Shown here: positions 4,909 through 53,195 of the stretch, one piece after another
How the letters are laid out: the number at the start of each line of letters is the position of its first letter
How positions within the stretch are numbered: position 1 is the stretch's first letter
Origin: Planctomycetota bacterium
Lineage (GTDB): Bacteria; Planctomycetota; Planctomycetia; Pirellulales; Pirellulaceae
Length of the DNA: 62,486 nucleotides
NCBI GenBank assembly: GCA_023430365.1
Contig: JAEZAS010000509.1
Coordinates: forward strand, 1 to 62,486
Direction: 5' to 3'
Notes under the pieces: generated by a model
Seen by the model: only the letters and a program-made list of their open reading frames with translations
Told to the model about the DNA's origin: nothing
Database searches by the model: none
Translations under genes and position numbers: made by a program

Positions 4909-5802
4909 ATGACTGCTCTTTCTCGCCGCAATTTCCTGGCGGCTTCGGCTGCCACTCTTGCCGCGACCTCGTCGCTTTCTGCCATCGAGCCGATCGCGCG
5001 CAACGGTCAGCCAAAGTTCAAGTTCAGCCTGGCAGCCTACAGCTACCGAAGCTTGCTGACCGGCGAGAACCCGCAGCTCACGCTCAACGACTTCGTCGAT
5101 GATTGTGCGAAGTTCGGCCTCGAGGGGACCGAATTGACGTCGTACTACTTTCCCAAGGGCGTCACGCACGACTACCTGCGCTCGCTGAAGCGGCAATGCT
5201 TTCGGTTGGGCTTGGATGTCTCGGGGACGGCGGTGGGGAACGACTTCGGCGTGGCTCCGGGACCAGCGCGAGACAAGCAAATCGCTTCGCTGAAGCAGTC
5301 GATCGACTTCGCCCAGTCGCTCGGGGCTCCGGTGATCCGGGTCTTTGCCGGCCATACGCCCAAGGGGGAAACGGCGCCGGCGGAGGTGCACTCGCGGATG
5401 GTGTCGGCCATCGAGGAGTGCTGCGACTACGCGGGGCAGCGGGGCGTGCACCTGGCGCTCGAAAACCACGGCGGACCGACGGCGACGGCGGAAGGCTTGC
5501 TGAAGTTCGTGCAGGACGTGCAGAGCCCGTGGTTCGGCGTGAACCTGGATACGGGGAACTTCCACTCGGACGACATCTACGGCGAGCTGGAGCGGGTTGC
5601 GCCGTATGCGCTGAATGTGCAGGTGAAAGTGGTCGTGAGCGGTCCCGACAAGAAGAAGCAGCCGACCGACTACAAGCGGATTGCGAAGCTGCTCCGCGAC
5701 TCCAACTACCGCGGCTACGTCGTGCTCGAGTACGAAGAGAAGGGCGATCCGCGGGAAGAGTGCCCGAAGCACCTGCAGGAGCTGCGCGAGGCGTTTGCGT
5801 GA
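4909..5802 (+). CDS. Sugar phosphate isomerase/epimerase (xylose-isomerase-like TIM barrel) with a Tat signal
   Basis: Twin-arginine leader MTALSRRNFLAASAATLAATSSLSA, then a TIM-barrel AP-endonuclease/xylose-isomerase-like region (GLEGTEL..., HLALENHGG, NLDTGNF). Confidence 0.75.
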   Translation: MTALSRRNFLAASAATLAATSSLSAIEPIARNGQPKFKFSLAAYSYRSLLTGENPQLTLNDFVDDCAKFGLEGTELTSYYFPKGVTHDYLRSLKRQCFRLGLDVSGTAVGNDFGVAPGPARDKQIASLKQSIDFAQSLGAPVIRVFAGHTPKGETAPAEVHSRMVSAIEECCDYAGQRGVHLALENHGGPTATAEGLLKFVQDVQSPWFGVNLDTGNFHSDDIYGELERVAPYALNVQVKVVVSGPDKKKQPTDYKRIAKLLRDSNYRGYVVLEYEEKGDPREECPKHLQELREAFA

Positions 5803-6238
5803 GAGGGGGAGAGGGAAGGGAGGAGAGGGACAAGGGACAAGAGATAAGGGATTACGGCGGGAGTTGGTCGAGAACCACGAGCCTCTTGGGTCTGAACTCT
5901 AAGCTCTGCTCTCTGAACTCTCCGGCCCAAACTTTTTATTTCGCGCGAACCTTTGGGGGCTGGCTAGGTCTATTCTGTCGGCCAGCGCGAAATGCCTTTT
6001 CCGAACGCGTTCCCCGCGGCGATTCGACGAGTAACGAGAACGACTGGCGGATGAGAGAAACGTCGAATGCGCAAAACCGGCCAGATTTTCCTCTTGCCAG
6101 AATTGTGCCCCCTGACAATTATGAGATTGACGGGCCGTGCCACGCAGCACGGCAGGACTAGGGCCCGAACTAGATCGCTTCTTCGGCCGCGATCGAACCG
6201 GGGACAACTTAGTTGGAAAGGAGGTGGTCTAGTGAGTT

Positions 6239-25789: not shown

Positions 25790-26200
25790 ATGGCCCCTCG
25801 CATCACCTCCGCCGATCTCGAAGCGTATCTCGACGAAGTGCTTTCGGCGGCCGAGATGAGCACGATCGAGAGTGCGATCCGGGCCAATCCAGACCTGCTG
25901 AAGCAGCTGGCGATCATCAACGGCCGGCGGGACGCGGGGCTGCATTCGGTCGGAGAGATCTGGCGTCGGCACCGGCTCAGTTGTCCGACGCGTGAGCAGC
26001 TCGGCAGCTATCTGCTGGGCGTGCTCGACAGCGAACATGCCGACTACATCGCCTTCCACTTGGAAAAGATCTCCTGCCGCTTGTGCCAGGCGAATCTCGA
26101 AGACTTGCAACGGCACCAGCAGGAGAGCGGCGAGGTCGTGCAGACCCGCCGGACGAAGTACTTTCAGTCGACCGCCGGGCACTTGCGGCGGGAGCGATAG
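25790..26200 (+). CDS. Small putative zinc-finger regulatory protein (possible anti-sigma zf-HC2-like)
   Basis: HRLSCPTREQL and HLEKISCRLCQ Cys/His pairs; 136 aa; located two genes after the ECF sigma gene. Confidence 0.35.
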   Translation: MAPRITSADLEAYLDEVLSAAEMSTIESAIRANPDLLKQLAIINGRRDAGLHSVGEIWRRHRLSCPTREQLGSYLLGVLDSEHADYIAFHLEKISCRLCQANLEDLQRHQQESGEVVQTRRTKYFQSTAGHLRRER

Positions 26201-26209
26201 GCCTTTCGG

Positions 26210-27457
26210 CTATTTCTTCGCTTTGCCGCTCTTGCTGAGAAAGCCGAGCCAACCGCCACCGCTCTTGGTGGCTGTCGCCGGGGCGGCATTCGGATCGGGA
26301 TTGTCGCGAAGCCGGTCCGATTTTTCTTCGCCGGAGAGCGCCTCGGCGAGCGTGACAATCGCCTGGGTGATGCTCGCCCTCGGGGCCTGCTCAATCAGCG
26401 GCACGCCGTTGTTGCGCACGTCGACCATCGTGCGATAGTCGTTCGGCAACTGCCAGAAGATTTCGCGGCCCATCGTTTCCTGGGCCTTCTTCAGGCTGAT
26501 GGGTCCGCTGTCGAGACCGACGCGGTTGACGACCACCTTGGTCTTGTCCTTCAGGCCGTCCACTTCGTTGAACGACATCATCAATCGCACGACATTGCGC
26601 AAGCAGGGCAAGTCGAGTTGCGATACGAGCAGCACGTGCTTCGACGCCTGCATCGCCACCATGTCAATCGGCGTGTAGCTCTTCGACAGGTCGATGATCA
26701 TGTGCGTGAACGTCGCCTTGAGCAGGCCGAGCACGCGAGTCAGATCCTCGGGCGTGATGTGCGAGGTGTCCTGCAGTTGCACCGGACGGGGCAACAGGTA
26801 CAGGCCCGAGGCGTGCTTCGTGAGCGATCGCTTGAGGAGCGTGAAGTCGAGGCGCGTGATGTTCTGCGCCACATCGACCAGCGTATAGTCGGGAATGGTG
26901 TCGAGGAAGATGTCGGCGTCGCCCAGGGCGAGGTCGAGATCGACGAGCACCACCGAATTGCGCTGATCGGCGGCCAGCACACAGCCGAGGTTCACCGCCA
27001 GGCTCGTGCTACCCACGCCCCCGGTGGCGCCGGCCACGGCGACCACATGACAGCTTCGGCTGCGGCCATCGCCGCCGCCAAACTTCTGATTGCTGATCCG
27101 GTCGAGCGCGGAGACCAGATCTTCGACGCGTACCGGCTGGATCAGAAATTCCTTCGCCCCGGCCCGCATGGCCCGCAGCACGATCTGGCCGTCGGACGAG
27201 CTGCTGACGACCAGCACCGCGCACTCGGGAGAGTTGGCGTGCAGGTTCTCGATCAGCTTCAACCCCTTATCGGGATTGGCGTCGATCGACACGACGCCGA
27301 TGTCGGGCTTCGTCTGGGCGACGACGTCGGCGAAAAACTCGTAACGCGAGCACTCTGCCTCCAGCCAAACGACGTCCATCCCCAGCAACATGTTCTTAAG
27401 CGCGTTGCGGGTCGTGTCGGTTGGGTCGACGATGGCGAGGCGAAGAACGTTGCTCAT
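26210..27457 (-). CDS. cpaE: Tad pilus assembly ATPase-like protein CpaE/TadZ (receiver domain plus MinD/ParA-like domain)
   Basis: N-terminal CheY-like fold (LAIVDPTD...) and deviant Walker A AVAGATGGVGSTSLAVNLG. Confidence 0.8.
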   Translation of the reverse strand: MSNVLRLAIVDPTDTTRNALKNMLLGMDVVWLEAECSRYEFFADVVAQTKPDIGVVSIDANPDKGLKLIENLHANSPECAVLVVSSSSDGQIVLRAMRAGAKEFLIQPVRVEDLVSALDRISNQKFGGGDGRSRSCHVVAVAGATGGVGSTSLAVNLGCVLAADQRNSVVLVDLDLALGDADIFLDTIPDYTLVDVAQNITRLDFTLLKRSLTKHASGLYLLPRPVQLQDTSHITPEDLTRVLGLLKATFTHMIIDLSKSYTPIDMVAMQASKHVLLVSQLDLPCLRNVVRLMMSFNEVDGLKDKTKVVVNRVGLDSGPISLKKAQETMGREIFWQLPNDYRTMVDVRNNGVPLIEQAPRASITQAIVTLAEALSGEEKSDRLRDNPDPNAAPATATKSGGGWLGFLSKSGKAKK

Positions 27458-27550
27458 CGTTACCTGAAGGAAAGGCGGCTGACTTGGAAAGAAGCAAAGG
27501 CCGCGGCAAAAATTGCCACGGCGCAGTCAGGCGAGATTACGCCCCGAAAC

Positions 27551-29251
27551 CTATTTTAGATCGTCATATCCGAGCGGTCCGATCAACGTGGGTTGCCCCA
27601 CTGCAGCGGGTTTCTGAGCCGTCGTGCTGGGTTGGTAGCGGCTAGTCGGATTTTGCGTGGCAGTCGGCCGCATGTCGCCGACCGTGGTCCGCGTCGCCGA
27701 GACCGGTCGAGTCACGGCGCTTCGCATCGGCTGCTGCGCCTGAGTGCCGTAGCCAGGCGTGCGCCGGGCGTTGGCATCGGCGGCTGGAACGGGTTGACCG
27801 GGCGGCAGCGTTTCGTACGCGGGTCCGTGATGCATTTCCGGATAGGCCGGCACACCACCCGGATGGGGACCGCCGCAGTCGCCGTCCTTGCAGGGGCTCT
27901 TCGGCGTTTCGATGTAGCCGCGATAGTAGAGCTCCACGTCGGTGGGCGAGCTGGTCAGCTGACCCGGACCACACGGGGGCACTTCACAGGGGTCCATGGC
28001 TTCCGCGAATTCGGGCGTCACCATGATGACCAATTCCACTTCGTTGTTGCGTTCGGTGACGCGGCGGAACGGGGCGCCGAACCACGGCACATCCGCAATC
28101 CACGGCAAACCCTTGTTCTGCGACTCAGTGCGGTTGTAGACGAGACCGGCGATCGCCAGGGTTTGGCCCGCCTTCATTTCGACGCCCACGTCGGCCCGAC
28201 GCTGACGGAAACCAGGAACCACCGAACCGCCGACCGTCACCGACAGGCTGTTGTCGAGCTCCGTGATCTGCGGGCGGACTTCCAGGCGAACGACGCCGTT
28301 GCCAAGCACGATCGGCACGAAGTCGACTTGCGTACCGAACTCGCGATATTCGATTGTCACGGTGCCAAGGCTCTGCGGCACCAGCACCGGAACTTCACCA
28401 CCGACGTTGAAGCTCGCCGGCCGGCCGTTCAGAGTGGTGAGGGTCGGTTCGGCCAGCAACTTGGCCAGATCGTTCTGCCGCAGGGCTTCGAGGAAGCCGT
28501 AGAACTGCGTGTTTCCGTCGACGATGCCAAAGCGGACGGTCGAGGGTCCGCCGGCCAGGTCGCCCGCGTTGTTGATCAAGCCGCCAACGCCCTGCGAGAA
28601 GAAAGCCTGCTCGCCGAGCACCGCCCAGTCGAAACCGAGGGTCCGCAGCTTCGTGCGAGAAACTTCCATCACCTTCACATGCAACAGGACCTTCTGCACG
28701 CCGCCGACTGTCATGTTGTTGACGATCTTGGGGAAGTAATCTTCCGCGACGCGGACGATGCTGCCGACCATCTCGGCCTTGGGCACGAAGCCCGAGATGT
28801 ACAAGCTGCTATTGAGGGGCCGCAGGCGGAGCGAGGCGTCGGGAAATTCCGTCTTGAGAACGAGCTCCAGTTCCTGAACGTCGCCGAGGATGACCAGGTC
28901 GATCGAGGTCACCTTGCCGTCCATGTCCCAGACGTTGAGCTGCGTAACGCCCGCTTTCACCGCCGAGAGTTGAATCGAGTTCGGCGAGACCGGAATCACC
29001 CGCACGAGGTCGGGGTTGTTCACCAGCATCTTCGGCACGTCGAATTCGAACTCGAGCACCCGGCTGGTGTTCACGGTCATGTCCAGGCGTTCGGCGGGGC
29101 CGTTCACCTTGAACTTGACCGACGGAGGCGCCGCATCCTGGGCGGTCGACCTGGCGACTGGTGCGATGCCGAGCAGCGCGAGGACCAGTGCGGCGATCAG
29201 GGGCCGGCGGCCCATGGGCGATGAGAACAACATCCGTGTAAATCCTTGCAC
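27551..29251 (-). CDS. cpaC: Tad secretin CpaC/RcpA with a Pro/Gln-rich C-terminal extension
   Basis: Signal peptide; BON/secretin-N region; secretin core GQTLAIAGLVYNRTESQNKGLPWIADVPWFGAPFRR ... ELVIMVTPEF; ~150-aa Pro-rich tail. Confidence 0.8.
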   Translation of the reverse strand: MQGFTRMLFSSPMGRRPLIAALVLALLGIAPVARSTAQDAAPPSVKFKVNGPAERLDMTVNTSRVLEFEFDVPKMLVNNPDLVRVIPVSPNSIQLSAVKAGVTQLNVWDMDGKVTSIDLVILGDVQELELVLKTEFPDASLRLRPLNSSLYISGFVPKAEMVGSIVRVAEDYFPKIVNNMTVGGVQKVLLHVKVMEVSRTKLRTLGFDWAVLGEQAFFSQGVGGLINNAGDLAGGPSTVRFGIVDGNTQFYGFLEALRQNDLAKLLAEPTLTTLNGRPASFNVGGEVPVLVPQSLGTVTIEYREFGTQVDFVPIVLGNGVVRLEVRPQITELDNSLSVTVGGSVVPGFRQRRADVGVEMKAGQTLAIAGLVYNRTESQNKGLPWIADVPWFGAPFRRVTERNNEVELVIMVTPEFAEAMDPCEVPPCGPGQLTSSPTDVELYYRGYIETPKSPCKDGDCGGPHPGGVPAYPEMHHGPAYETLPPGQPVPAADANARRTPGYGTQAQQPMRSAVTRPVSATRTTVGDMRPTATQNPTSRYQPSTTAQKPAAVGQPTLIGPLGYDDLK

Positions 29252-29316
29252 TAGCGTGTTGGCATTCCATGCCTACGCCTGCCGCATCCGTGGCAGGCGC
29301 TGTTGCACCCGGGTGG

Positions 29317-30423
29317 TTACCAGGCGCGGAACAACGAGCGCCGGCCGCTCGACTTCGGCGGCGCTTCTCCATTAATCAGCGTATCGGTCTCTGCGGTGTC
29401 TTCTTCAGCCGTGGGCTCGGCGGTCGCCGGGTCAGCGGCGGCCGGAGCCAGGGTGTTCGGGGCGACAGGCGTCAGCGGAGCTCCGCCCATGACCGCCTGC
29501 TCCGTGGGCATCGAATTGCGATCGGTCCACTCGTACTGCTTCACATCCGAGGGGCCGAAGACGGTCATCACGAAACCCGCCTTGGGTGTTTCAGGAGCGG
29601 CTACCGGCGCCGGAGGCGTCTGGACGGCCGACTTGATCGCATCGAGGAAGGAGGGACCGGTGCTGGCGACCTGCGTGTCGGCATCTGGCTCCTCATCGTC
29701 GCCGTTCTTCGACTTGCCGTTGAGGATGTCGGCGAGCGACGTGACGTCTTCTTCGCTGCCGTCGCTCACTTCGCCCGGGTGACGCAGGACGAGGAAGATC
29801 TTGCCGATCTGTCCGGCCATCGCCAGTTCGCGAGCCTGGTCCGGCTTCACGAGCAGCGAGACCGTACGAGCCTGGATTTCCTTGCCCTTGTCATCGACCG
29901 AGCGTTCCGTGTTCGAACCAACCGCGAACACGCGCACGTTGCGAAGGATCGTATGCGTTCCGGTGCGAAGCACTTCTTCGCTGCGCCGCAGGAAGACGTT
30001 CACATCGACGCGATCGCCCGGGGCAATGCCCTTCAGCACGGTGTCTTCTTCAATACGGACCGGCATCACGCGAAAACCTTCGGGAATGCGGGTCGCCGAG
30101 TTGTCGGTGCTGTCGCTGATCTTGGCCTGAATGATCGGCTCGCCCTTATAGAAGCGCTGGAGGGCGAACTTGTTCTCGACGTCGTTCAGGCTGGTGATCG
30201 CCCCTTCGGGGACTTTCATCTTGGGCCATTCCTCGAGCTTCACGTTCGAGGCGTCGAGCTTGGCGTTGATATCGATATCGGAGAGAGCGACAAGGATCTG
30301 AGCCATCTCGAGTTGCGGTGTCGCGCGGGTGCCGCTGCCTTGCAGCACCTGGCTGATGCCGATCGACGCGACGAGGCCGCAGCCCAGGGCGATAAAGATC
30401 AGAATCAGCGATTTCATTCGCAT
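29317..30423 (-). CDS. cpaB: Flp pilus assembly protein CpaB/RcpC (SAF domain)
   Basis: N-terminal TM (LILIFIALGCGLVASIGI), SAF/ChapFlgA region VALSDIDINAKLD..., RcpC-like core RVMPVRIEEDTVLKGIAPGDRVDV; Pro/Ala-rich C-terminus. Confidence 0.8.
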   Translation of the reverse strand: MRMKSLILIFIALGCGLVASIGISQVLQGSGTRATPQLEMAQILVALSDIDINAKLDASNVKLEEWPKMKVPEGAITSLNDVENKFALQRFYKGEPIIQAKISDSTDNSATRIPEGFRVMPVRIEEDTVLKGIAPGDRVDVNVFLRRSEEVLRTGTHTILRNVRVFAVGSNTERSVDDKGKEIQARTVSLLVKPDQARELAMAGQIGKIFLVLRHPGEVSDGSEEDVTSLADILNGKSKNGDDEEPDADTQVASTGPSFLDAIKSAVQTPPAPVAAPETPKAGFVMTVFGPSDVKQYEWTDRNSMPTEQAVMGGAPLTPVAPNTLAPAAADPATAEPTAEEDTAETDTLINGEAPPKSSGRRSLFRAW

Positions 30424-30524
30424 CGCGACGTTCCTAACTCAAAGGCGGTCGTTGTACCTGCGGCCACCCCTCGGATTTGGAGGGGAAACATTCCATCAAT
30501 CCGCCCTGATCCTTGGGCGATCCG

Positions 30525-31040
30525 TTACTGCACGCTCTCGCGGCGCATCACCGTGGAGGCAGTAAGGGTTTTCCCTCCTAAAAACATTGGCGATGGAAGC
30601 CAGCTGACTTGATTAAAAGGAACGGAGACCGTCACGCTCACCGGGTCGCCGAAGGCGGCATTGCTGGGCGGATTTGGACTAACCGTTATCGTCGCACCCT
30701 TGATGGCCCCACTCGTCAGGTAGCTGTTTACGGCATTGCGCACTTCGTTGGTCGTGGCGCCGTCGAGAACCGCCTGCCGAGCCCCCTCGCGGGAGGCGTT
30801 GGTGATGACTTGCTGCACCATCACCATTCGGCCGAACTCGATCATTCCGAACACGAGCAGGAAGAACACCGGGACCACGACCGCAAACTCTACGGTGGCA
30901 GCGCCCAGACGGAATCTTCGGAACGACCGGCAAGGTCGCTCCACCTTCCGCCCCGCATGCGGAACACCTTCGCCAGAATGCCCAGATGGCCGCTCAGCGA
31001 TAATGGTGCGCGAACCCGTCGTGGTATCGAATCGGCTCAT
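30525..31040 (-). CDS. TadE-like pilus assembly protein (pseudopilin-like)
   Basis: TadE motif AATVEFAVVVPVFFLLVFGMIEFGRMVMVQQVITNASREGAR. Start ATG at 31040 overlaps the cpaA stop (ATGA). Confidence 0.6.
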   Translation of the reverse strand: MSRFDTTTGSRTIIAERPSGHSGEGVPHAGRKVERPCRSFRRFRLGAATVEFAVVVPVFFLLVFGMIEFGRMVMVQQVITNASREGARQAVLDGATTNEVRNAVNSYLTSGAIKGATITVSPNPPSNAAFGDPVSVTVSVPFNQVSWLPSPMFLGGKTLTASTVMRRESVQ

Positions 31041-31606
31041 ACCAGCTTCCCCATCCAGATGAAGTAACCAATGGTGCCCATCGCGATCGGAATGCCGTAA
31101 GGCAGGAGCAGCATCGAGCTTTTCCGCTGGGCGGCGATCGTTGCTAGCTGCTCGGGATTTTTGATGACCATGATCTCGTTCAAGATCAGCCAGAACTGTT
31201 CGGTGTGCTTCTTCATCGAGCGACGGTAGAGCACCATGGCGACCGCTAGCACCGCGCCGATGACGGCGGTCCAAGCGAAGGCGTACGTGGTGTCCATCAC
31301 CCAGACCCAGGCGCCGACGCCGGCGAGCAGCTTCACGTCGCCGGCTCCCATGCCGCCGATCGCGTAGGCCGGCATCAGCAGAGCCAGGCCGACGATCGTG
31401 CCCAGCAGGCTCCAGCCGAGACCTTCGAGGCCGAAGGCGGCGAAGCTGTAGACCCAGCCGCTCATGATGAACGGAAACGTGATCCAGTTCGGAACCTTCA
31501 GTTCAAATCCGTCGATCACTGCCGCGACGATCAAGGTGATAGTCACCAGCCAGATCGGCCAGTTCTCAACAATGGCAGTGCCGAAAGCGGCAGCAAGATC
31601 GAACAT
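31037..31606 (-). CDS. cpaA: A24-family prepilin peptidase CpaA/TadV
   Basis: ATG at 31606 preceded by GGAGAG. 5-6 TM helices with conserved Asp in AAVIDGFELKVPN and GGMGAGDVKLLAGVGAW. Confidence 0.75.
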   Translation of the reverse strand: MFDLAAAFGTAIVENWPIWLVTITLIVAAVIDGFELKVPNWITFPFIMSGWVYSFAAFGLEGLGWSLLGTIVGLALLMPAYAIGGMGAGDVKLLAGVGAWVWVMDTTYAFAWTAVIGAVLAVAMVLYRRSMKKHTEQFWLILNEIMVIKNPEQLATIAAQRKSSMLLLPYGIPIAMGTIGYFIWMGKLV

Positions 31607-31898
31607 CGGAACTCTCTCCCCGTTTAAAACCTTTCGCCCTGGCGGCCGGCGATCATGCCGGCCAGGTCTTAGCGCAGTGCGAACAAATAGCTCAGTAATG
31701 CAACGACCATCGTGCAACCGTAGCACACCATTTCCCACCCGCCCGCAAGCGAGTCGATTGGCAGCGCTGTGTACATCTGTGGTCAGCTCCAGCGAACGTT
31801 CATGGGATCGAGAAAGCGGCCTTAGCGCCGGCACGGGGCCGACCGCTCGCGCACCTTCTACGCAAGACTAGGTCACGTTTTTGCGCGCGGCCTGCAAC

Positions 31899-48955: not shown

Positions 48956-49471
48956 ATGTCAGCGCCGGAAAGCGTCCCGCCGATCGATCCCGGCGTTTGC
49001 ATAGGCCACGTTCACTTGAAGGTGGCCGACCTCGAGCGATCGCTACGGTTCTATTGCGGCGTGCTGGGGTTCGAGCTCACGCAGCGCTACGGCAGCCAGG
49101 CGGCGTTCATCTCGGCAGGGGGTTACCACCATCACCTGGGGCTCAACACCTGGGAAAGCCGAGGAGGCTCGCCGCCGGCGCGAGGCACGACTGGGCTGTA
49201 CCACGTCGCCATTCTGTATCCAACGCGACGCAGCCTGGCCGATGCGCTCCAGCGGCTGGTCACGGCAGGCATTCCGCTCGATGGCGCGAGCGATCACGGC
49301 GTGAGCGAAGCCTTATACCTGCGCGATCCCGACGAGAACGGGCTTGAACTCTACTGGGATCGCCCGCGCGACGTATGGCCGCGAACGGCGGATGGGCAGA
49401 TCGAGATGTACACGCATCGACTCGACCTGCAAGGTCTGCTCGGCGAACTTCAATCGCCGGCGGGCGAGTGA
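48956..49471 (+). CDS. VOC-family (glyoxalase/bleomycin-resistance/extradiol dioxygenase) protein
   Basis: AAGGAG RBS; IGHVHLKVADLERSLRFYCGVLGFEL ... HHHLGLNTWES ... YLRDPDENGLELY. Confidence 0.75.
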   Translation: MSAPESVPPIDPGVCIGHVHLKVADLERSLRFYCGVLGFELTQRYGSQAAFISAGGYHHHLGLNTWESRGGSPPARGTTGLYHVAILYPTRRSLADALQRLVTAGIPLDGASDHGVSEALYLRDPDENGLELYWDRPRDVWPRTADGQIEMYTHRLDLQGLLGELQSPAGE

Positions 49472-49494
49472 GCGGCTGAATAAATCGCGAGCGA

Positions 49495-50151
49495 CTACCA
49501 ACCGTCGCGATAGCGCTGCTCGCGCCACGGATCACCCAACATGTGATAGCCCCCTTGCTCCCAGTAGCCGGGACGATCCTCGGATGTGAGCTCGATCGCC
49601 GCGACCCACTTCGCGCTCTTCCAGGCGTAAAGCCGCGGGACCATGCCGCGGACCGGGCCGCCGTGGTCGGCAGAGATCGGTTGGCCGTCGTGCGTGTCGG
49701 CCAGAAGGGCGTCTTCGGCGACGAACTCGCCCAGCGGCAAGTTGGTCGTCCAGCCACGGTCGTAGGCATGGCAGACGACGAACCTGGCCTCCGGCAGCAC
49801 ACCCGCTCGCTCGAGCAACACGCGGGTGGAAACGCCCTCCCACAGATTGCCCAGCCGAGACCAGGCAGTCACGCAGTGGAAGTCGGCAAACACCTTCACC
49901 CGCGGCAGGGCTTGGAACTCGGCGAGCGTCAGCACATACGGCCGCTCGACGAGGCCAAAGACGCGAAGCTGCCAGAGGTCGAGCGGAATCTGAGGAGTGC
50001 CGAAGGCGTCGAGCACCGGCCATTTGCGGGTGCGCGATTGGCCGGGCGGGATGCGGTTGCTGCGACGCGTATCGGGACTGACGATCACATCCTCCGGCAA
50101 CGCATCGGGGGTCGATGGCTCGCCGGTTTGATACTTCGGATCACTCAGCAT
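49495..50151 (-). CDS. Sulfite-oxidase-fold molybdopterin oxidoreductase (soluble, YedY/MsrP-like catalytic domain)
   Basis: Moco-domain pattern WQLRVFGLVERPYVLTLAEFQALP ... HCVTAWSRLGNLWEGVSTRVLL ... ADHGGPVRGMVPRLYAWKSAKWV. Starts at MLSDPKY; no signal peptide. Its start overlaps the stop of the PafA-like gene. Confidence 0.7.
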   Translation of the reverse strand: MLSDPKYQTGEPSTPDALPEDVIVSPDTRRSNRIPPGQSRTRKWPVLDAFGTPQIPLDLWQLRVFGLVERPYVLTLAEFQALPRVKVFADFHCVTAWSRLGNLWEGVSTRVLLERAGVLPEARFVVCHAYDRGWTTNLPLGEFVAEDALLADTHDGQPISADHGGPVRGMVPRLYAWKSAKWVAAIELTSEDRPGYWEQGGYHMLGDPWREQRYRDGW

Positions 50152-51910
50152 CTTCTTCCTGAGCCTCGGCTGCCGAGGAGTGGGCTTTGCCCGTGACGAT
50201 GCGTCGATAGTCGCGGAGGCGGATCGTCTTGGCCTTTCGACCCTGGCCGATGAAGACACATTTCCAGTTGGCGGCCACCGGTTCGTCGCCGCAGGCGAAC
50301 TCGCGAATGTAGCGGCCGCGGGCGGAGGCGGGAGTGCCGACCGGCGGGTTGCGACGGGCCAGTTCGATCTCGCTCGGCTCCAGAATCTGTTCCGTTACGC
50401 CGGCCGCGTTCAATTGTTGGAAGTAGCCCTGCGGCGAGAGCTCGTGATAGCGGAGGTCGATCTTCTTCTGGGCTTCCCAGCGGGCATCGCTGCCAGCCGA
50501 CTGGAGCACGAACCGCTTCGTCACCCAGTCGAGCGAACCAACGAGCGAATCGGGATCGTCCTGCAAGGCGTCGAGCGTCGCTTCCCAGCGTCGCACCAGC
50601 TCGCGGGCTTCGCGCGGGGCTTCAGGGCGACGGTCGAGAAACCGCCGACAGGCTTCCAGGTAGAACCGTTGCAACTCCAGGGCGCTCGCGTCCTGGCCAC
50701 CCGCCAGAGCTACGCGGGCACTCAGCGAGGGATCGGCGCAGATCGCTCGCAGCGCTCGCAGCGGCCGGCGGATTCGCGGCGGGCGGGGCATTTCCCCCGC
50801 TTCGATGCAGTCGATCACCAGCAGCGTCGTGCCGATGCGCAGGTACTCGGCTGGCTCCGCGAGATTGGAGTCCCCCAAGGCGATCTGCAACCGGTGCGTG
50901 CCGGCAAAGAGCCGCAAGTACTCGCGCGGCGCCATCCAGGCGTCGGCATAGACGGTCTTGAAGAAATGGCCGAACGTGAAGATCGGTCGGTCGCCGAGCA
51001 AACCGCCGTAGCCGGTCAGGCAGTTCATCGCCGGCGCCGTATCGGCGAGGTGGAACCGGCCGGCGTCGTCGAGCATGCCGCTGCCGCAGAGGATCGAGCG
51101 GCTCACAAGGAACGGCAAAATCTCTCGCCGCACGCGCGTGAACGCCGTTCCCCAGAGCAGCAAGTAGAACGCAGCCGCCAGCGGACCGGTCAGCACGCGG
51201 GTGATCGCCGAGAGCCAGGCCTCCAACCAGGCTGGCCCGGTCGGCGCCGCGTGGCCAAGTTGGTCGAACTCGCAGCCGAACAAAAACCGAGCCAGCGCAT
51301 CGGGCCGGCGGGTGAAGCGTTCACCCACCAGATAGACGAGGGAGGCAGCGATCGTGTAGAGGACGATCAGCAGGGCGAGCATCCAGAGCAGCGCCCAACT
51401 GACGAGGACCAGCGGCATCATCAGCACGAGGCCCACGCGCCAGGCCGCCAGCCGCCAACCCGTGGCAAAGGTCGCCTCGTAGTTCTCCTGAGCGCCGTAG
51501 ACATTGCCGCGGGCGTCGCGGTCGTTCTTGAGCAGACGGACCTGTCGGCCGAAGGCCCGATGGGCGGCCTCGGCGAGCAGTTCGTCCTGGGCCCGCTGCC
51601 AGGTGAGCAATTGTCGCGGACTGCGACACTCGGGCGTGGCGCCTTCGACCAGACCGCCGCCGGCCGCGGGGCGTTCGGTCTCGAACCAAACAGCACCGCC
51701 CGACGCATGAAAGACCCCTTCTTTCATATGCCGGGCGTCGACGACGGGAGTGATGCAGCGGAGCGCTGTCACCAGTTCCCGAAAGAGTTGGTAGCGACCG
51801 CCGGACCGCTTCACGGCGCCGGCGGGCAATTGCAAGGCGTATTCGGTCTCGAGGCCGATCAGCCGTTCGAAGACCTCGCCGCTAGGGACAGTGCCACTAC
51901 TACTCGCCAC
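50141..51910 (-). CDS. Pup-ligase family protein (PafA/Dop homolog) with a ~130-aa transmembrane insertion
   Basis: Recognised by eye, not searched: RLIGLETEYA, GGAVWFETERP..GATPEC, NDRDARGNVYGAQENY and ILPFLVSRSILCGSGML, which resemble the Pup-ligase motifs as I recall them. A hydrophobic multi-helix insert (WRLAAWRVGLVLMMPLVLVSWALLWMLALLIVLYTIAASLVYLV ... LTGPLAAAFYLLLWGTAF) lies between the ENY and LPFLV motifs. Start probably the GTG at ~51910 overlapping the stop of the Pup-like ORF; the track ORF extends to 52018. Confidence 0.7.
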   Translation of the reverse strand: MASSSGTVPSGEVFERLIGLETEYALQLPAGAVKRSGGRYQLFRELVTALRCITPVVDARHMKEGVFHASGGAVWFETERPAAGGGLVEGATPECRSPRQLLTWQRAQDELLAEAAHRAFGRQVRLLKNDRDARGNVYGAQENYEATFATGWRLAAWRVGLVLMMPLVLVSWALLWMLALLIVLYTIAASLVYLVGERFTRRPDALARFLFGCEFDQLGHAAPTGPAWLEAWLSAITRVLTGPLAAAFYLLLWGTAFTRVRREILPFLVSRSILCGSGMLDDAGRFHLADTAPAMNCLTGYGGLLGDRPIFTFGHFFKTVYADAWMAPREYLRLFAGTHRLQIALGDSNLAEPAEYLRIGTTLLVIDCIEAGEMPRPPRIRRPLRALRAICADPSLSARVALAGGQDASALELQRFYLEACRRFLDRRPEAPREARELVRRWEATLDALQDDPDSLVGSLDWVTKRFVLQSAGSDARWEAQKKIDLRYHELSPQGYFQQLNAAGVTEQILEPSEIELARRNPPVGTPASARGRYIREFACGDEPVAANWKCVFIGQGRKAKTIRLRDYRRIVTGKAHSSAAEAQEEDAE

Positions 51911-52067
51911 CGTAAGGGACTTCCGTCTCGCGGAGATAAGCCTCCGGAGCAGCCTTCGCGTCGACGGCGATTGCCGACAGCACCTGGTCAAGCGACGGGG
52001 CTTCCGGCCGGGCGACAACCGGCGTGGCGGCTTCCGGGGCTGTGGGAGTTTTCAGGTTCGTGGGCAT
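51900..52067 (-). CDS. Pup-like small protein (C-terminal GGE)
   Basis: 55 aa from the ATG at 52067 (AAGGTG 8 nt upstream): MPTNLKTPTAPEAATPVVARPEAPSLDQVLSAIAVDAKAAPEAYLRETEVPYGGE. Low complexity, C-terminal GGE, directly upstream of and overlapping the PafA-like gene. Confidence 0.45.
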   Translation of the reverse strand: MPTNLKTPTAPEAATPVVARPEAPSLDQVLSAIAVDAKAAPEAYLRETEVPYGGE

Positions 52068-52284
52068 GGGCAGACACCTTGCGCCAGAGGAATCAAGTGA
52101 AAGGCTTTCGCCGCCCCTCATGGGCCGGCACATTCATCCTAATCAGGCCCCGGAGCAGCGGCAAGCGCAGGCAGCGCCCGCGCTCGGTTCCGACCGCGTT
52201 TTGCCGGGCAAATATCCGGCCAAAGTCGCAGCCGGTGGCATAACGATGTTTGCACCGGGACGCCTATTCACCCGGCGCCCAACC

Positions 52285-52325
52285 TAGTAGGCCGGGTGGC
52301 ATGCCGTCGCGGTACTCCGCGTCGG
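52285..52325. repeat. REP palindrome (5' flank of RAYT)
   Basis: GGGTGGCATGCCGTCGCGGTACTCCGCGTCGGCATGG; imperfect palindrome CATGCCGTCGCG-GTACTC-CGCGTCGGCATG. Confidence 0.7.
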
Positions 52326-52434
52326 CATGGAGCCGGGCTCGCGTGCTACCCGACTCGCCGTCCGGCGTCGTTAGGGGACCGCCCTGGTCACTGCTGCGTG
52401 ACATATTTGCGCCAGTGAAGTAACAATTGCCAGA

Positions 52435-53028
52435 ATGAACGATGGCATCCCCAGGCGGACGAAGCACAAGACTTGTCGGCGGTTCAATGAGCCGGGACAT
52501 GCTCATGCTCTGACGTTCTCCTGCTTTCAAGGACGGCCGTTCCTAAGTAAAGATCGAACGCGGCAGTGGTTCGTGAATTCACTGGACGCGGCACGTAGGC
52601 GACTGGCTTTTGACGTGTGGGCCTATGTCATCATGCCGAATCATTGCCACGTGTTGGTTTGGCCTCGAAGTCCGATCTATTCGATCAGCGAGATCCTGAC
52701 GTCGATTAAGTTGCCCGTCGCTCGTCGCGCGGTGGCTTGGGTGAAACAAAACTCACCCGACAACCTCCAACTCATGCGGGACAACCAGCCGAGCGGCGCC
52801 GCGGTCCATCGATTCTGGCAGCGCGGGGGCGGGTTCGACCAAAACCTGGTCGAGGAGAAGTTGATTTACGCGACGATCGACTACCTTCATTTGAATCCGG
52901 TTCGGCGTGGACTGGTCGAGCGTGCGGAAGACTGGAAATGGTCCTCGGCTGGGTACTTCGCGGGAGCGGCCGATGTTCCTTTGAAACCGGATTCGGGTTC
53001 GCTGCCCACGCCGGTGGATGAAACTTGA
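52435..53028 (+). CDS. REP-associated tyrosine transposase (RAYT; IS200/IS605-like Y1 transposase)
   Basis: HuH motif VIMPNHCHVLVWP, catalytic Tyr region YATIDYLHLNPVRRGLV, N-terminal GHAHALTFSCFQGRPFL; flanked by inverted REP copies. Confidence 0.8.
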   Translation: MNDGIPRRTKHKTCRRFNEPGHAHALTFSCFQGRPFLSKDRTRQWFVNSLDAARRRLAFDVWAYVIMPNHCHVLVWPRSPIYSISEILTSIKLPVARRAVAWVKQNSPDNLQLMRDNQPSGAAVHRFWQRGGGFDQNLVEEKLIYATIDYLHLNPVRRGLVERAEDWKWSSAGYFAGAADVPLKPDSGSLPTPVDET

Positions 53029-53057
53029 CACGTTTAGCGTATTACGACTGGTGACCG

Positions 53058-53100
53058 AATTGCATGCCGACGCGGAGTACCGCGACGGCATGCCACCCGA
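53058..53100. repeat. REP palindrome (3' flank of RAYT, inverted relative to the 5' copy)
   Basis: Reverse complement reads GGTCGGGTGGCATGCCGTCGCGGTACTCCGCGTCGGCATGCAATTC, identical over 36 nt to the upstream copy. Confidence 0.7.
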
Positions 53101-53195
53101 CCAAGGTCCGACGCTCGGTAGCACGCCGTGGGCTCACGCCCACGGCTAATCAATGCCGCCGCTGCGCGGCTTTCCTCTTGCCCTTGGGTGGCGCA

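What the first reader, a model, noticed from the sequence alone, without database searches (positions are those of the whole stretch)
49495..52133. Pupylation-like module: GGE-terminated small ORF, membrane-inserted PafA/Dop-family ligase and a translationally coupled sulfite-oxidase-fold enzyme, with no proteasome in sight
Read directly from the sequence, the 50141..~51910(-) protein matches the Pup-ligase family at every motif position I could check. RLIGLETEY corresponds to RIMGIETEF, GATPEC to ATAEC, NVYGAQENY to NSYGCHENY, and ILPFLVSRSILCGSG to LLPFLVTRQLICGAG.

Between the ENY and LPFLV motifs, where characterised PafA/Dop have about a dozen residues, this protein carries about 130 residues. 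These contain 3-4 very hydrophobic helices, so the ligase would be an integral membrane protein.

The ORF immediately upstream (51900..52067) is 55 aa, low complexity, and ends ...EAYLRETEVPYGGE. A C-terminal Gly-Gly-Glu is what Pup carries in lineages that do not need Dop deamidation. Its stop overlaps the ligase GTG start (GTGGCGAGTAG).

Downstream, the ligase stop overlaps the start of a cytoplasmic sulfite-oxidase-fold Moco protein.

No 20S proteasome subunits, no Mpa/ARC AAA ATPase and no second Pup-ligase paralog occur anywhere in the 62 kb. If this is genuine it would be proteasome-independent, membrane-localised protein tagging, perhaps coupled to a redox enzyme. I am not aware of this architecture having been described.
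Basis: partly seen in the sequence, partly recalled or inferred. Interest (0 to 1): 0.8.

Follow-up and report, generated by a model that had tools for sequence, protein, structure and literature searches.

The report
Membrane-anchored Pup-like protein-tagging gene pair
This is a real two-gene module, a 55-residue protein ending in Gly-Gly-Glu plus a membrane-inserted relative of the mycobacterial Pup ligase. This architecture was already predicted by computer in 2008, it has never been tested in the lab as far as I could find, and the neighbouring molybdenum enzyme is only a lineage-specific neighbour.

Summary
On the minus strand lie a 55-aa ORF ending ...VPYGGE (51900-52067), a 589-aa Pup_ligase-family protein (50141-51910; Pfam E=1.5e-85), and a 218-aa sulfite-oxidase-fold protein (49495-50151). 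Each junction overlaps by 11 nt. The ligase carries a ~115-residue hydrophobic insert between its ENY and LPFLxSR motifs.

The GGE-ending small ORF precedes the ligase in 76 of 79 evaluable related loci (Planctomycetota, Myxococcota, Oligoflexales); one more ends AGE. So the pair is a conserved module. Forty further ORFs across the 62 kb show no proteasome or AAA ATPase domain, and tblastn finds no second Pup-ligase.

Two parts of the interpretation fail. The molybdenum enzyme follows the ligase only in one Pirellulaceae subclade (6 of 19 evaluable loci there, plus one close relative; none elsewhere). The architecture is also not new. Iyer, Burroughs and Aravind (2008) described Pup plus a Pup ligase with inserted TM segments and no proteasome linkage in Rhodopirellula and Plesiocystis. 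Hecht et al. (2020) used the planctomycete enzyme as a PafA/Dop outgroup.

New here:
- The family is a third branch, neither PafA nor Dop.
- Glu replaces the catalytic Asp, and Gln replaces two active-site His.
- The small protein belongs to no Pfam family.
- No neighbouring gene is conserved across the family.

The parts
51900..52067 (-). Small modifier-like gene, 55 aa. The N-terminal half is variable and rich in Pro/Ala/Thr. The C-terminal ~28 residues are conserved and end ...YLRETEVPYGGE.
   Evidence: ORF and sequence. A public gene call has the same 55-aa product (P0217). 352 homologues are in the protein database, all 'hypothetical' and without a Pfam domain. A GGE-ending ORF sits directly upstream of the ligase in 76 of 79 evaluable loci, and one more ends AGE. 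Family consensus: I-x-x-D-[SA]-x3-P-x2-Y-L-x-E-T-x-V-P-H-G-G-E. Invariant residues are D36, G53, G54, E55.
50141..51910 (-). Pup-ligase-family enzyme (589 aa, GTG start) from a third branch that is neither PafA nor Dop.
   Evidence: Pfam PF03136: 288 bits, E=1.5e-85, full length. NCBIfam Dop scores 176 bits against a cutoff of 492, and PafA 169 bits against 551. PDB phmmer: Dop 159 bits, PafA 103 bits. AF2 model: pLDDT 83.8, pTM 0.86. Foldseek: Dop 4b0r E=1.6e-24, PafA 4bjr E=8e-22, YbdK 1e-4. More than 1100 homologues at 90% clustering. At 50% clustering there are 380 clusters with E<=1e-30.
51125..51469 (-). Hydrophobic membrane insert of the ligase (residues ~148-262), flanked by the active-site motifs QENY (141-144) and R271.
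   Evidence: Kyte-Doolittle 19-window maximum is 2.6 for 153-199. The family-averaged profile is at or above 1.6 over 161-189 and 241-248. The maximum outside the insert is 0.96. The AF2 model shows helices 151-196, 203-211 and 227-255. The insert is present in all 138 representatives (88-242 aa), and 137 of them have a window of at least 1.6. Conserved residues include W157, R158, P166, W172, P243 (82 of 82), F257 and R261.
49495..50151 (-). Sulfite-oxidase-fold molybdopterin-binding protein, 218 aa, with no signal peptide. It is a lineage-specific downstream neighbour, not a conserved part of the module.
   Evidence: Pfam PF00174 E=2e-39. Only weak NCBIfam hits to MsrP/SoxC/SorA, 55 bits or less against cutoffs of at least 207. 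Best PDB match is sulfite oxidase 6y0k, E=5e-11. It follows the ligase in L007, L010, L025, L036, L081 (P. staleyi, 76% identical) and L082 only, all in one subclade.

Best explanation
This is a self-contained two-gene conjugation module of the kind Iyer et al. predicted in 2008.

Proposed mechanism:
1. The 55-aa, largely disordered protein binds the ligase through its conserved C-terminal ~28 residues.
2. The ligase uses glutamine-synthetase-fold chemistry, as PafA does. [quoted passage not shown]
3. It then transfers the acyl group to an amine, most likely the epsilon-amino group of lysines.
4. The hydrophobic insert sits between two active-site elements (QENY and R271), so the active site is held at the cytoplasmic face of the membrane. 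The targets should therefore be membrane or membrane-proximal proteins.
5. The tag already ends in Glu, so no Dop-type deamidation is needed. There is no proteasome or Mpa nearby, so the tag is probably regulatory or feeds another pathway.

Shown: gene structure, family membership, fold, the hydrophobic insert, conservation of the gene pair, and absence of proteasome genes in the window.

Inferred: ligase rather than hydrolase activity, the cytoplasmic-face topology, and the nature of the acceptors.

The downstream Moco enzyme is co-transcribed here but is not part of the conserved system.
For: - Pup_ligase HMM, fold and GhExE motif.
- Metal- and ATP-binding acidic residues are conserved over 82 loci sequences: E21, E23, E89, E94, E142, plus K128, N129, D132, R271, R340.
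- A GGE-ending small ORF lies directly upstream in 76 of 79 evaluable loci across three phyla, and one more ends AGE. None ends in Gln.
- The small protein resembles Pup in size (family mode 50-60 aa), in having a variable N-terminus and a conserved C-terminus, and in layout. The hhalign match to the Pup helix region is in register but weak.
- The hydrophobic insert is universal in the family.
- No other neighbouring gene is conserved across the family.
- No proteasome, AAA ATPase or second ligase is in the 62 kb.
- The same prediction appears in PMC2588565.
Against: - There is no biochemical evidence for this branch, and none was found in the searchable literature.
- The small protein has no statistically supported homology to Pup.
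- The enzyme scores slightly closer to the hydrolase Dop than to the ligase PafA.
- The catalytic Asp of PafA/Dop is replaced by Glu (E77), and two conserved His by Gln (Q141, Q342). The alpha-loop Thr-Thr that matters in PafA and Dop is not conserved. The chemistry could therefore differ.
- The AF2 model draws 151-196 as one 46-residue helix, so the topology is uncertain.
- Whether the genome has a proteasome or Mpa elsewhere could not be checked.
Confidence: 0.6

Rival explanations
1. Redox-coupled tagging. The sulfite-oxidase-fold Moco enzyme would be an integral partner, either a target or a regulator of the tagging reaction, which would explain the translational coupling.
For: - The ligase stop and the Moco start overlap by 11 nt in this window.
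- The same gene order is found in P. staleyi, L082, L007, L010, L025 and L036, across ligase identities of 49-88%.
- The Moco protein is better conserved than the ligase: 76% against 56% identity to P. staleyi.
Against: - Outside one Pirellulaceae subclade it is absent from within 6 kb of the ligase, apart from one weak opposite-strand hit in L045. Inside that subclade it is absent from most evaluable loci, being present in about 6 of 19.
- It is absent from all Myxococcota and Oligoflexales loci.
- The overlap is not conserved: the gaps are 13 nt in L082 and 124 nt in P. staleyi.
Confidence: 0.1
2. The acceptor is not a protein. The membrane-held active site would ligate the small protein's terminal Glu to an amine-bearing lipid head group such as phosphatidylethanolamine or an ornithine lipid, or to a small amine. 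That would resemble Atg8 lipidation or gamma-glutamyl-amine synthesis.
For: - The active site is flanked by the membrane insert.
- The wider superfamily (GS, GCS2) ligates small amines (PMC2588565).
- The active site is remodelled relative to PafA/Dop, with E77, Q141, Q342 and a changed alpha-loop.
- No partner or target gene is conserved.
Against: There is no direct evidence. All characterised Pup-ligase-family enzymes act on protein lysines. The insert could simply be an anchor.
Confidence: 0.08
3. The enzyme is mainly a Dop-like amidase or hydrolase, or a bifunctional ancestral-type enzyme, rather than a dedicated ligase.
For: - It scores slightly higher to Dop than to PafA by sequence and by structure.
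- Hecht et al. place the planctomycete enzyme outside the PafA/Dop duplication and argue that the ancestor was promiscuous.
Against: - Of 77 neighbouring small ORFs, 76 end in GGE, one in AGE and none in Gln, so there is nothing to deamidate.
- There is only one family member in the window, and Hecht et al. report a single copy per genome. A hydrolase alone would have no substrate.
- There is no Dop-loop: the region between strand 1 and the NG/GG strand is about 8 residues longer than in PafA, against about 40 in Dop.
Confidence: 0.1
4. The tag is a degradation signal after all, delivered to a membrane AAA protease such as FtsH or to an unlinked unfoldase encoded elsewhere in the genome.
For: - In actinobacteria Pup is a degron; its disordered N-terminus is threaded by Mpa (this is my own knowledge of the family).
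- The small protein here also has a variable, disordered-looking N-terminal half.
- Membrane localisation would suit FtsH.
Against: - No protease or AAA gene is linked in any of the 80 loci or in the window.
- The N-terminal half is not conserved in sequence.
Confidence: 0.12

Closest known systems
TM-inserted Pup ligase plus Pup pair of Rhodopirellula and Plesiocystis (Iyer, Burroughs and Aravind 2008, Biol Direct 3:45; computational prediction)
   Same: The architecture is the same: a small G[EQ]-terminated protein directly upstream of a Pup-ligase homologue, hydrophobic segments inserted after core strand 4 (the ENY strand), and no linkage to proteasome genes. It occurs in the same phyla.
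   Different: [quoted passage not shown] Across 80 loci no neighbour is conserved, and small membrane proteins follow only in subsets.
- They called four TM segments. Here the count is unresolved.
- The Moco neighbour, the E77/Q141/Q342 signature and the size of the family were not described in the text I read.
PafA, the actinobacterial Pup-protein ligase (PDB 4B0T, 4BJR)
   Same: - Same Pfam family and fold.
- GhExE motif, ENY strand and LPFLxxR helix.
- No Dop-loop.
- A partner ending in Gly-Gly-Glu, as in Corynebacterium Pup.
- Presumably the same ATP-dependent gamma-glutamyl ligation.
   Different: - Only 18-20% identity in the structural alignment.
- It fails the PafA equivalog model, 169 bits against a cutoff of 551.
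- It has a ~115-residue membrane insert.
- Glu replaces the catalytic Asp, Gln replaces two His, and the alpha-loop differs.
- No proteasome, Mpa or Dop context.
Dop, the depupylase/deamidase (PDB 4B0R, 5LRT, 7OXV)
   Same: It is the best sequence and structure match: 159 bits, and Foldseek E=1.6e-24 with TM-score 0.79 on the target. Pro is kept in the TPE motif, as in Dop (table, compared).
   Different: - No ~40-residue Dop-loop.
- It fails the Dop equivalog model, 176 bits against 492.
- The partner ends in Glu, so deamidation is not needed.
- It is a single copy.
Proteasome-free pupylation in Corynebacterium
   Same: Pup-type tagging without a 20S proteasome, and a Pup that ends in Glu. 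This rests on my own knowledge, apart from the C. glutamicum PafA-Pup structure 4BJR.
   Different: Corynebacteria keep Dop and the ARC/Mpa unfoldase, and their PafA is soluble. Here neither is linked, and the ligase is membrane-inserted.
GCS2/YbdK carboxylate-amine ligases
   Same: Same glutamine-synthetase fold and GhExE motif. They are the next-best structural hits (1tt4 and 1r8g, E about 1e-4).
   Different: They score about 20 orders of magnitude weaker than Dop/PafA. They have no Pfam hit here and no small-protein partner.

Membership tests
Pup_ligase family (Pfam PF03136; PafA/Dop superfamily) | Full-length HMM match above the gathering threshold | tested here: met
   288.3 bits against a cutoff of 25, profile positions 1-440 of 441, E=1.5e-85.
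Pup_ligase family (Pfam PF03136; PafA/Dop superfamily) | Glutamine-synthetase-type fold with the GhExE motif; closest structures are PafA and Dop rather than other carboxylate-amine ligases | tested here: met
   GLETEY at residues 19-24. The AF2 model (pLDDT 83.8) hits Dop at E=1.6e-24 and PafA at 8e-22, against YbdK/GCS2 at 1e-4.
PafA (NCBIfam TIGR03686 equivalog) | Score at or above the equivalog cutoff | tested here: not met
   169.4 bits against a cutoff of 551.3.
PafA / Dop active site | Catalytic Asp at the end of the NGxRLY(L/V)D strand, and His in GCHENY and RLHV | tested here: not met
   MAFFT aligns the Asp to E77 (GGAVWFE). The His positions align to Q141 (QENY) and Q342 (RLQI). E77 is present in 80 of 82 loci sequences and 137 of 138 representatives. 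Q141 is present in 82 of 82 and 120 of 138. Q342 is present in 82 of 82 and 127 of 138.
Dop (NCBIfam TIGR03688 equivalog) | Score at or above the equivalog cutoff, and presence of the ~40-residue Dop-loop | tested here: not met
   176.3 bits against a cutoff of 492.3. The segment between strand 1 and the GG(A)VWFE strand is only about 8 residues longer than in PafA. [quoted passage not shown]
Pup (Pfam PF05639) | Sequence homology to Pup | tested here: not met
   None of 49 family members hits PF05639 at E<=10. The family profile does not find the Pup chains in the PDB, although M. tuberculosis Pup finds them at E=3.5e-36 as a control. hhalign against a Pup alignment gives E=0.064 and probability below 1%, though the match is in register with the Pup helix region. 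The Pup alignment had low diversity (at least 80% identity), so distant homology is not excluded.
Pup (functional definition) | Small (50-90 aa) protein with a C-terminal Gly-Gly-Glu/Gln, encoded next to a Pup-ligase gene | tested here: met
   55 aa, ending GGE and overlapping the ligase start. The same arrangement is found in 76 of 79 evaluable loci, and one more ends AGE.
Pup (functional definition) | Isopeptide bond from the terminal Glu gamma-carboxylate to substrate lysines | not testable with these tools
   This needs proteomics or in vitro ligation.
TM-inserted Pup-ligase systems (Iyer et al. 2008) | Hydrophobic/TM insertion immediately after core strand 4 of the ligase | tested here: met
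   The insert spans residues ~148-262, directly after QENY. Its hydropathy is well above the rest of the protein, and it is present in all 138 representatives. Membrane insertion itself is a prediction.
TM-inserted Pup-ligase systems (Iyer et al. 2008) | No linkage to proteasome subunits or Mpa | tested here: met
   No Proteasome or AAA Pfam domain in 40 further ORFs across the 62-kb window. No such gene family recurs in the 80 loci.
Sulfite-oxidase-fold Moco enzymes (Pfam PF00174) | Oxidored_molyb domain match; membership of a named subfamily (MsrP, SoxC, SorA/T) | tested here: inconclusive
   The domain is present (135 bits, E=2e-39). All named equivalogs fall far below their cutoffs, 55 bits or less against at least 207. 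There is no dimerisation domain and no signal peptide, and a candidate Mo-ligand Cys lies in DFHCVTAWS (sequence). The subfamily function is unknown.

The most novel reading that the evidence does not exclude
The membrane-held ligase does not tag proteins. Instead it attaches the 55-aa protein through its terminal Glu to an amine-bearing membrane lipid such as phosphatidylethanolamine or an ornithine lipid. That would be a bacterial counterpart of Atg8/LC3 lipidation built on glutamine-synthetase chemistry. A less radical version is also open: this could be a third functional class of Pup-ligase enzyme, with a Glu/Gln/Gln active site, that tags membrane proteins without any proteasome, Mpa or Dop.
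Probability: 0.08. Interest if true: 0.85.

Novelty: new member of a known kind. Interest (0 to 1): 0.35.

Why it matters
Pupylation is the only known bacterial counterpart of ubiquitin-type degradation tagging, and it is studied almost entirely in actinobacteria, where it works with a proteasome.

This branch is large:
- about 380 clusters at 50% identity score E<=1e-30, out of about 2100 Pup-ligase-family clusters at E<=1e-10;
- more than 1100 clusters at 90% identity.

It is spread over Planctomycetota, Myxococcota and Oligoflexales. It is membrane-inserted, single-copy and has no proteasome link. It lies outside the PafA/Dop duplication according to Hecht et al.

If the system is active, it would show what Pup-type tagging does without degradation machinery, and possibly what the ancestral enzyme did. 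The idea has been in print since 2008, so this window adds a clean, well-conserved example and some sharper family features. It does not add a new kind of system.

Tried and rejected
1. Small ORF as a recognisable Pup. The single sequence had no Pfam or NCBIfam hit. All 49 family members scanned against Pfam gave no PF05639 hit. The family profile did not find the Pup chains in the PDB. hhalign against M. tuberculosis Pup and against a 25-sequence Pup alignment gave E=0.086 and 0.064, not significant.

2. A conserved third gene. All ORFs of at least 90 aa from the 80 loci were clustered by all-against-all BLAST. Apart from shadow ORFs inside the ligase gene, no cluster outside it reaches more than 15 loci, and those are clade-limited. 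The 'membrane protein' of Iyer et al. could correspond to the DUF456-like or GlsB/YeaQ-like small membrane proteins seen downstream in a few loci. I did not confirm this.

3. Moco as a core component. Rejected on distribution.

4. Anti-phage defence system. No PADLOC hit for any of the three proteins.

5. Promoter and terminator scan of 49200-52500. Nothing above the shuffle expectation.

6. Exact look-up of the window's ligase in the contig index. Not on record.

7. Resolving the topology from the AF2 model. No coordinates are available, only secondary structure, and the 46-residue helix 151-196 may be a modelling artefact.

8. Retrieving PafA or Dop sequences from the representative search. 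The top 150 hits all belong to the insert-bearing family. I used the PDB alignment print-outs instead.

9. Literature search for experimental work on this branch. None found.

Full report
**What is there**

Three genes lie head to tail on the minus strand.
- A 55-aa ORF runs from ATG 52067 to TAG 51900: MPTNLKTPTAPEAATPVVARPEAPSLDQVLSAIAVDAKAAPEAYLRETEVPYGGE.
- A 589-aa ORF runs from GTG 51910 to TGA 50141.
- A 218-aa ORF runs from ATG 50151 to 49495.

Both junctions overlap by 11 nt: GGTGGCGAGTAG at the first and ATGCTGAGTGA at the second. Public gene calls give exactly the same 589-aa and 55-aa products (P0001; P0217).

The window has about 62% G+C. The nearest relatives of the ligase are all Pirellulaceae (Planctomycetota).

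**The ligase**

Pfam Pup_ligase (PF03136) matches end to end at 288 bits, E=1.5e-85.

The NCBIfam equivalog models for Dop and PafA both hit, but far below their cutoffs: 176 against 492 bits and 169 against 551 bits. Against PDB sequences, Dop scores 159 bits and PafA 103 bits.

An AlphaFold2 model built on 33 homologues has pLDDT 83.8 and pTM 0.86. Foldseek places it with:
- Dop (4b0r, E=1.6e-24, target TM-score 0.79);
- PafA (4bjr, E=8e-22);
- GCS2/YbdK only at about 1e-4.

That does not happen.

**A third branch, not PafA or Dop**

I aligned the N-terminal halves, with the insert removed, against C. glutamicum PafA, M. tuberculosis PafA and A. cellulolyticus Dop. Those sequences came from the PDB alignment print-outs. 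The alignment shows the following.
- The catalytic Asp of NGxRLY(L/V)D aligns with Glu77 of GGAVWFE.
- A 9-residue insertion follows it.
- The His of GCHENY is Gln141.
- There is no ~40-residue Dop-loop.
- The His of RLHVI(I/V)GD is Gln342.
- The Thr-Thr of the alpha-loop is not conserved. Hecht et al. show that this pair matters in both PafA and Dop.

These substitutions are family features.
- E77 occurs in 80 of 82 sequences from the loci and 137 of 138 representatives at 50% clustering.
- Q141 occurs in 82 of 82 and 120 of 138.
- Q342 occurs in 82 of 82 and 127 of 138.

The metal- and nucleotide-binding acidic residues and R271/R340 are invariant or nearly so. This argues for an active enzyme.

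Hecht et al. 2020 reached the same placement. They found a single-copy planctomycete homologue, 29-31% identical to both PafA and Dop, and used it as the outgroup to the PafA/Dop duplication.

**The insert**

PafA and Dop have about a dozen residues between ENY and the LPFLxxR helix. This protein has 126 between residues 144 and 271.
- Residues 159-196 form a 38-residue uncharged, strongly hydrophobic stretch, with a Kyte-Doolittle 19-window maximum of 2.6.
- Residues 228-257 are moderately hydrophobic, with conserved R238 and invariant P243.
- The loop 197-226 between them is rich in Arg.
- Outside the insert the family-averaged profile never exceeds 0.96.

All 138 representatives have an insert of 88-242 residues, and 137 of them have a window of at least 1.6.

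The AF2 model draws helices at 151-196, 203-211 and 227-255. I could not get coordinates, so the topology stays open.
- Both ends of the insert join one soluble domain, so the number of passes must be even.
- The positive-inside rule, the mid-stretch Trp172/176 and the invariant P243 favour a hairpin of two TM helices plus a second (re-entrant or TM) hairpin. That agrees with the four TM segments called by Iyer et al.
- The AF2 secondary structure would fit two long helices instead.

Either way the insert is flanked by active-site elements (QENY and R271). By inference, the catalytic cradle must sit close to the membrane surface.

**The small ORF**

I fetched 80 related loci from species-representative genomes, and 79 of them can be evaluated.
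- In 76, an ORF ending GGE stops at or within a few tens of bases of the ligase start.
- One more ends AGE (L067).
- L071 and L072 have none.
- L028 is cut by the contig end.

The set includes Myxococcota (Haliangiales, Enhygromyxa) and Oligoflexales at 35-41% ligase identity. P. staleyi has the ORF too, ending ...ENYLAESIVPFGGE.

Typical length is 50-60 aa. The N-terminal half is unalignable and rich in Pro/Thr/Ala/Glu. The C-terminal ~28 residues follow the pattern h-x2-h-h-x2-I-x-x-D-[SA]-x3-P-x2-Y-L-x-E-T-x-V-P-H-G-G-E, with D36, G53, G54 and E55 invariant.

A profile search finds 352 such proteins. All are annotated 'hypothetical' and none has a Pfam domain. The second refutation test (not conserved, or lacking a GG[EQ] end in orthologues) also fails.

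Homology to actinobacterial Pup is not demonstrable with the tools used.
- No PF05639 hit.
- No hit to the Pup chains in the PDB, although M. tuberculosis Pup finds them easily.
- hhalign E=0.064. It does align QVLSAIAVDAKAAPEAYLRE with DLLDEIDDVLEENAEDFVRA, the expected register.

I therefore call it Pup-like by function and layout, not a proven Pup family member. Iyer et al. did count the planctomycete and Plesiocystis proteins as Pup orthologues from PSI-BLAST/HMM searches.

**The Moco gene**

It is a bare Oxidored_molyb domain (E=2e-39). It has no signal peptide and no dimerisation domain, and it is far below every named NCBIfam subfamily cutoff.

A close homologue directly follows the ligase in:
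- L007, L010, L025 and L036;
- P. staleyi, with a 124-nt gap and 76% identity;
- an 85%-identical relative, with a 13-nt gap.

On a neighbour-joining tree of the ligases these all fall in one Pirellulaceae subclade, where about 6 of 19 evaluable loci have it. Outside that subclade no locus has it next to the ligase. The only other hit is a weak (41.6-bit) match on the opposite strand, 2.2 kb from the ligase in L045.

This is retained or patchy synteny in one lineage, not a component of the system. The tight overlap is peculiar to this window.

Adjacency that survives down to 49% ligase identity leaves some room for a lineage-specific functional link. I give that 0.1.

**Context**

No other gene family recurs next to the pair across the 80 loci. 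Small membrane proteins follow in a few loci.

Pfam scans of 40 further ORFs covering the 62 kb found no proteasome subunit and no AAA ATPase of the Mpa type. What they did find includes:
- DprA, IF3, an SPFH protein, a rhomboid protease and a Ser/Thr kinase;
- an ECF sigma factor, Tad pilus genes and a cyclophilin;
- PCMT, glyoxalase, a cupin, cysteine synthase and others.

tblastn finds no second Pup-ligase. None of the three proteins hits PADLOC. I could not scan the rest of the genome.

**Prior art and novelty**

Iyer, Burroughs and Aravind (Biol Direct 2008, PMC2588565) state that in Plesiocystis and Rhodopirellula the Pup/Pup-ligase genes are not linked to proteasome genes. I found no experimental follow-up in the searchable literature.

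The finding is therefore a new member of a known, computationally predicted kind.
- the near-universal GGE partner across 79 loci;
- the absence of any conserved third gene;
- the Glu/Gln/Gln active-site signature and the missing Dop-loop;
- the scale of the family, with 380 clusters at 50% identity at E<=1e-30;
- the demotion of the Moco gene to a lineage-specific neighbour.

**Most likely mechanism**

I put 0.6 on ATP-dependent activation of the terminal Glu gamma-carboxylate of the 55-aa protein, followed by transfer to lysines of membrane or membrane-proximal proteins at the cytoplasmic face, independent of Dop, Mpa and the proteasome.

Shown: genes, family, fold, insert, pairing.

Inferred: ligase activity, topology, acceptors, and the consequence of tagging.

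Noticed in passing
window 52290-53102: An IS200-like/Y1-transposase-like gene (52435-53028, + strand) has only a weak Pfam Y1_Tnp hit (E=9.6e-4, below the cutoff). It is flanked by a 40-nt, 98% complementary inverted repeat (arms 52290-52329 and 53063-53102). Each arm is itself an imperfect palindrome, and these are the only two copies in the window. It looks like a REP/RAYT-type unit and lies about 220 nt upstream of the small GGE ORF.
   Followed up: partly
window 51680-51682, 51488-51490, 50885-50887 (codons for E77, Q141, Q342 of the ligase): This whole branch has Glu where PafA and Dop have the catalytic Asp, and Gln where they have two conserved active-site His. A minority of distant representatives (17 of 138) keep His at the QENY position.
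   Followed up: yes
L071 (Fuerstiella sp. MAG) and L072 ('Proteobacteria bacterium' MAG), about 5750-6050: These two loci have the insert-bearing ligase but no GGE- or GE-terminated ORF directly upstream. L067 has a variant ending ...VVVPREAGE. The small gene may be displaced or lost there, or may have diverged.
   Followed up: partly
L014 2609-3161, L013 8084-8627 and their clusters (L015, L018, L024; L020, L027, L037): Small multi-pass membrane proteins lie just downstream of the ligase in some marine Pirellulaceae loci. By eye they look DUF456-like and GlsB/YeaQ/YmgE-like. They may be the 'membrane protein' linkage mentioned by Iyer et al. They are not conserved across the family.
   Followed up: partly
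window 50180-52243 (+): A 687-aa open frame runs antisense across the whole ligase gene, and similar shadow ORFs recur in the related loci (the clusters). I take this to be a by-product of high G+C and a conserved sense frame, not a gene.
   Followed up: no
window ~26200-31850: A Tad/Flp-type pilus gene set lies on the minus strand: a response-regulator/ParA-like CpaE, a secretin, RcpC/CpaB and a prepilin peptidase. It is unrelated to the finding.
   Followed up: no
window 49495-50151 compared with L081 11882-12544: The Moco protein is more conserved between this window and Pirellula staleyi (76% identity) than the ligase next to it (56%). It matches no named sulfite-oxidase-fold subfamily, so its function is unknown.
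   Followed up: partly
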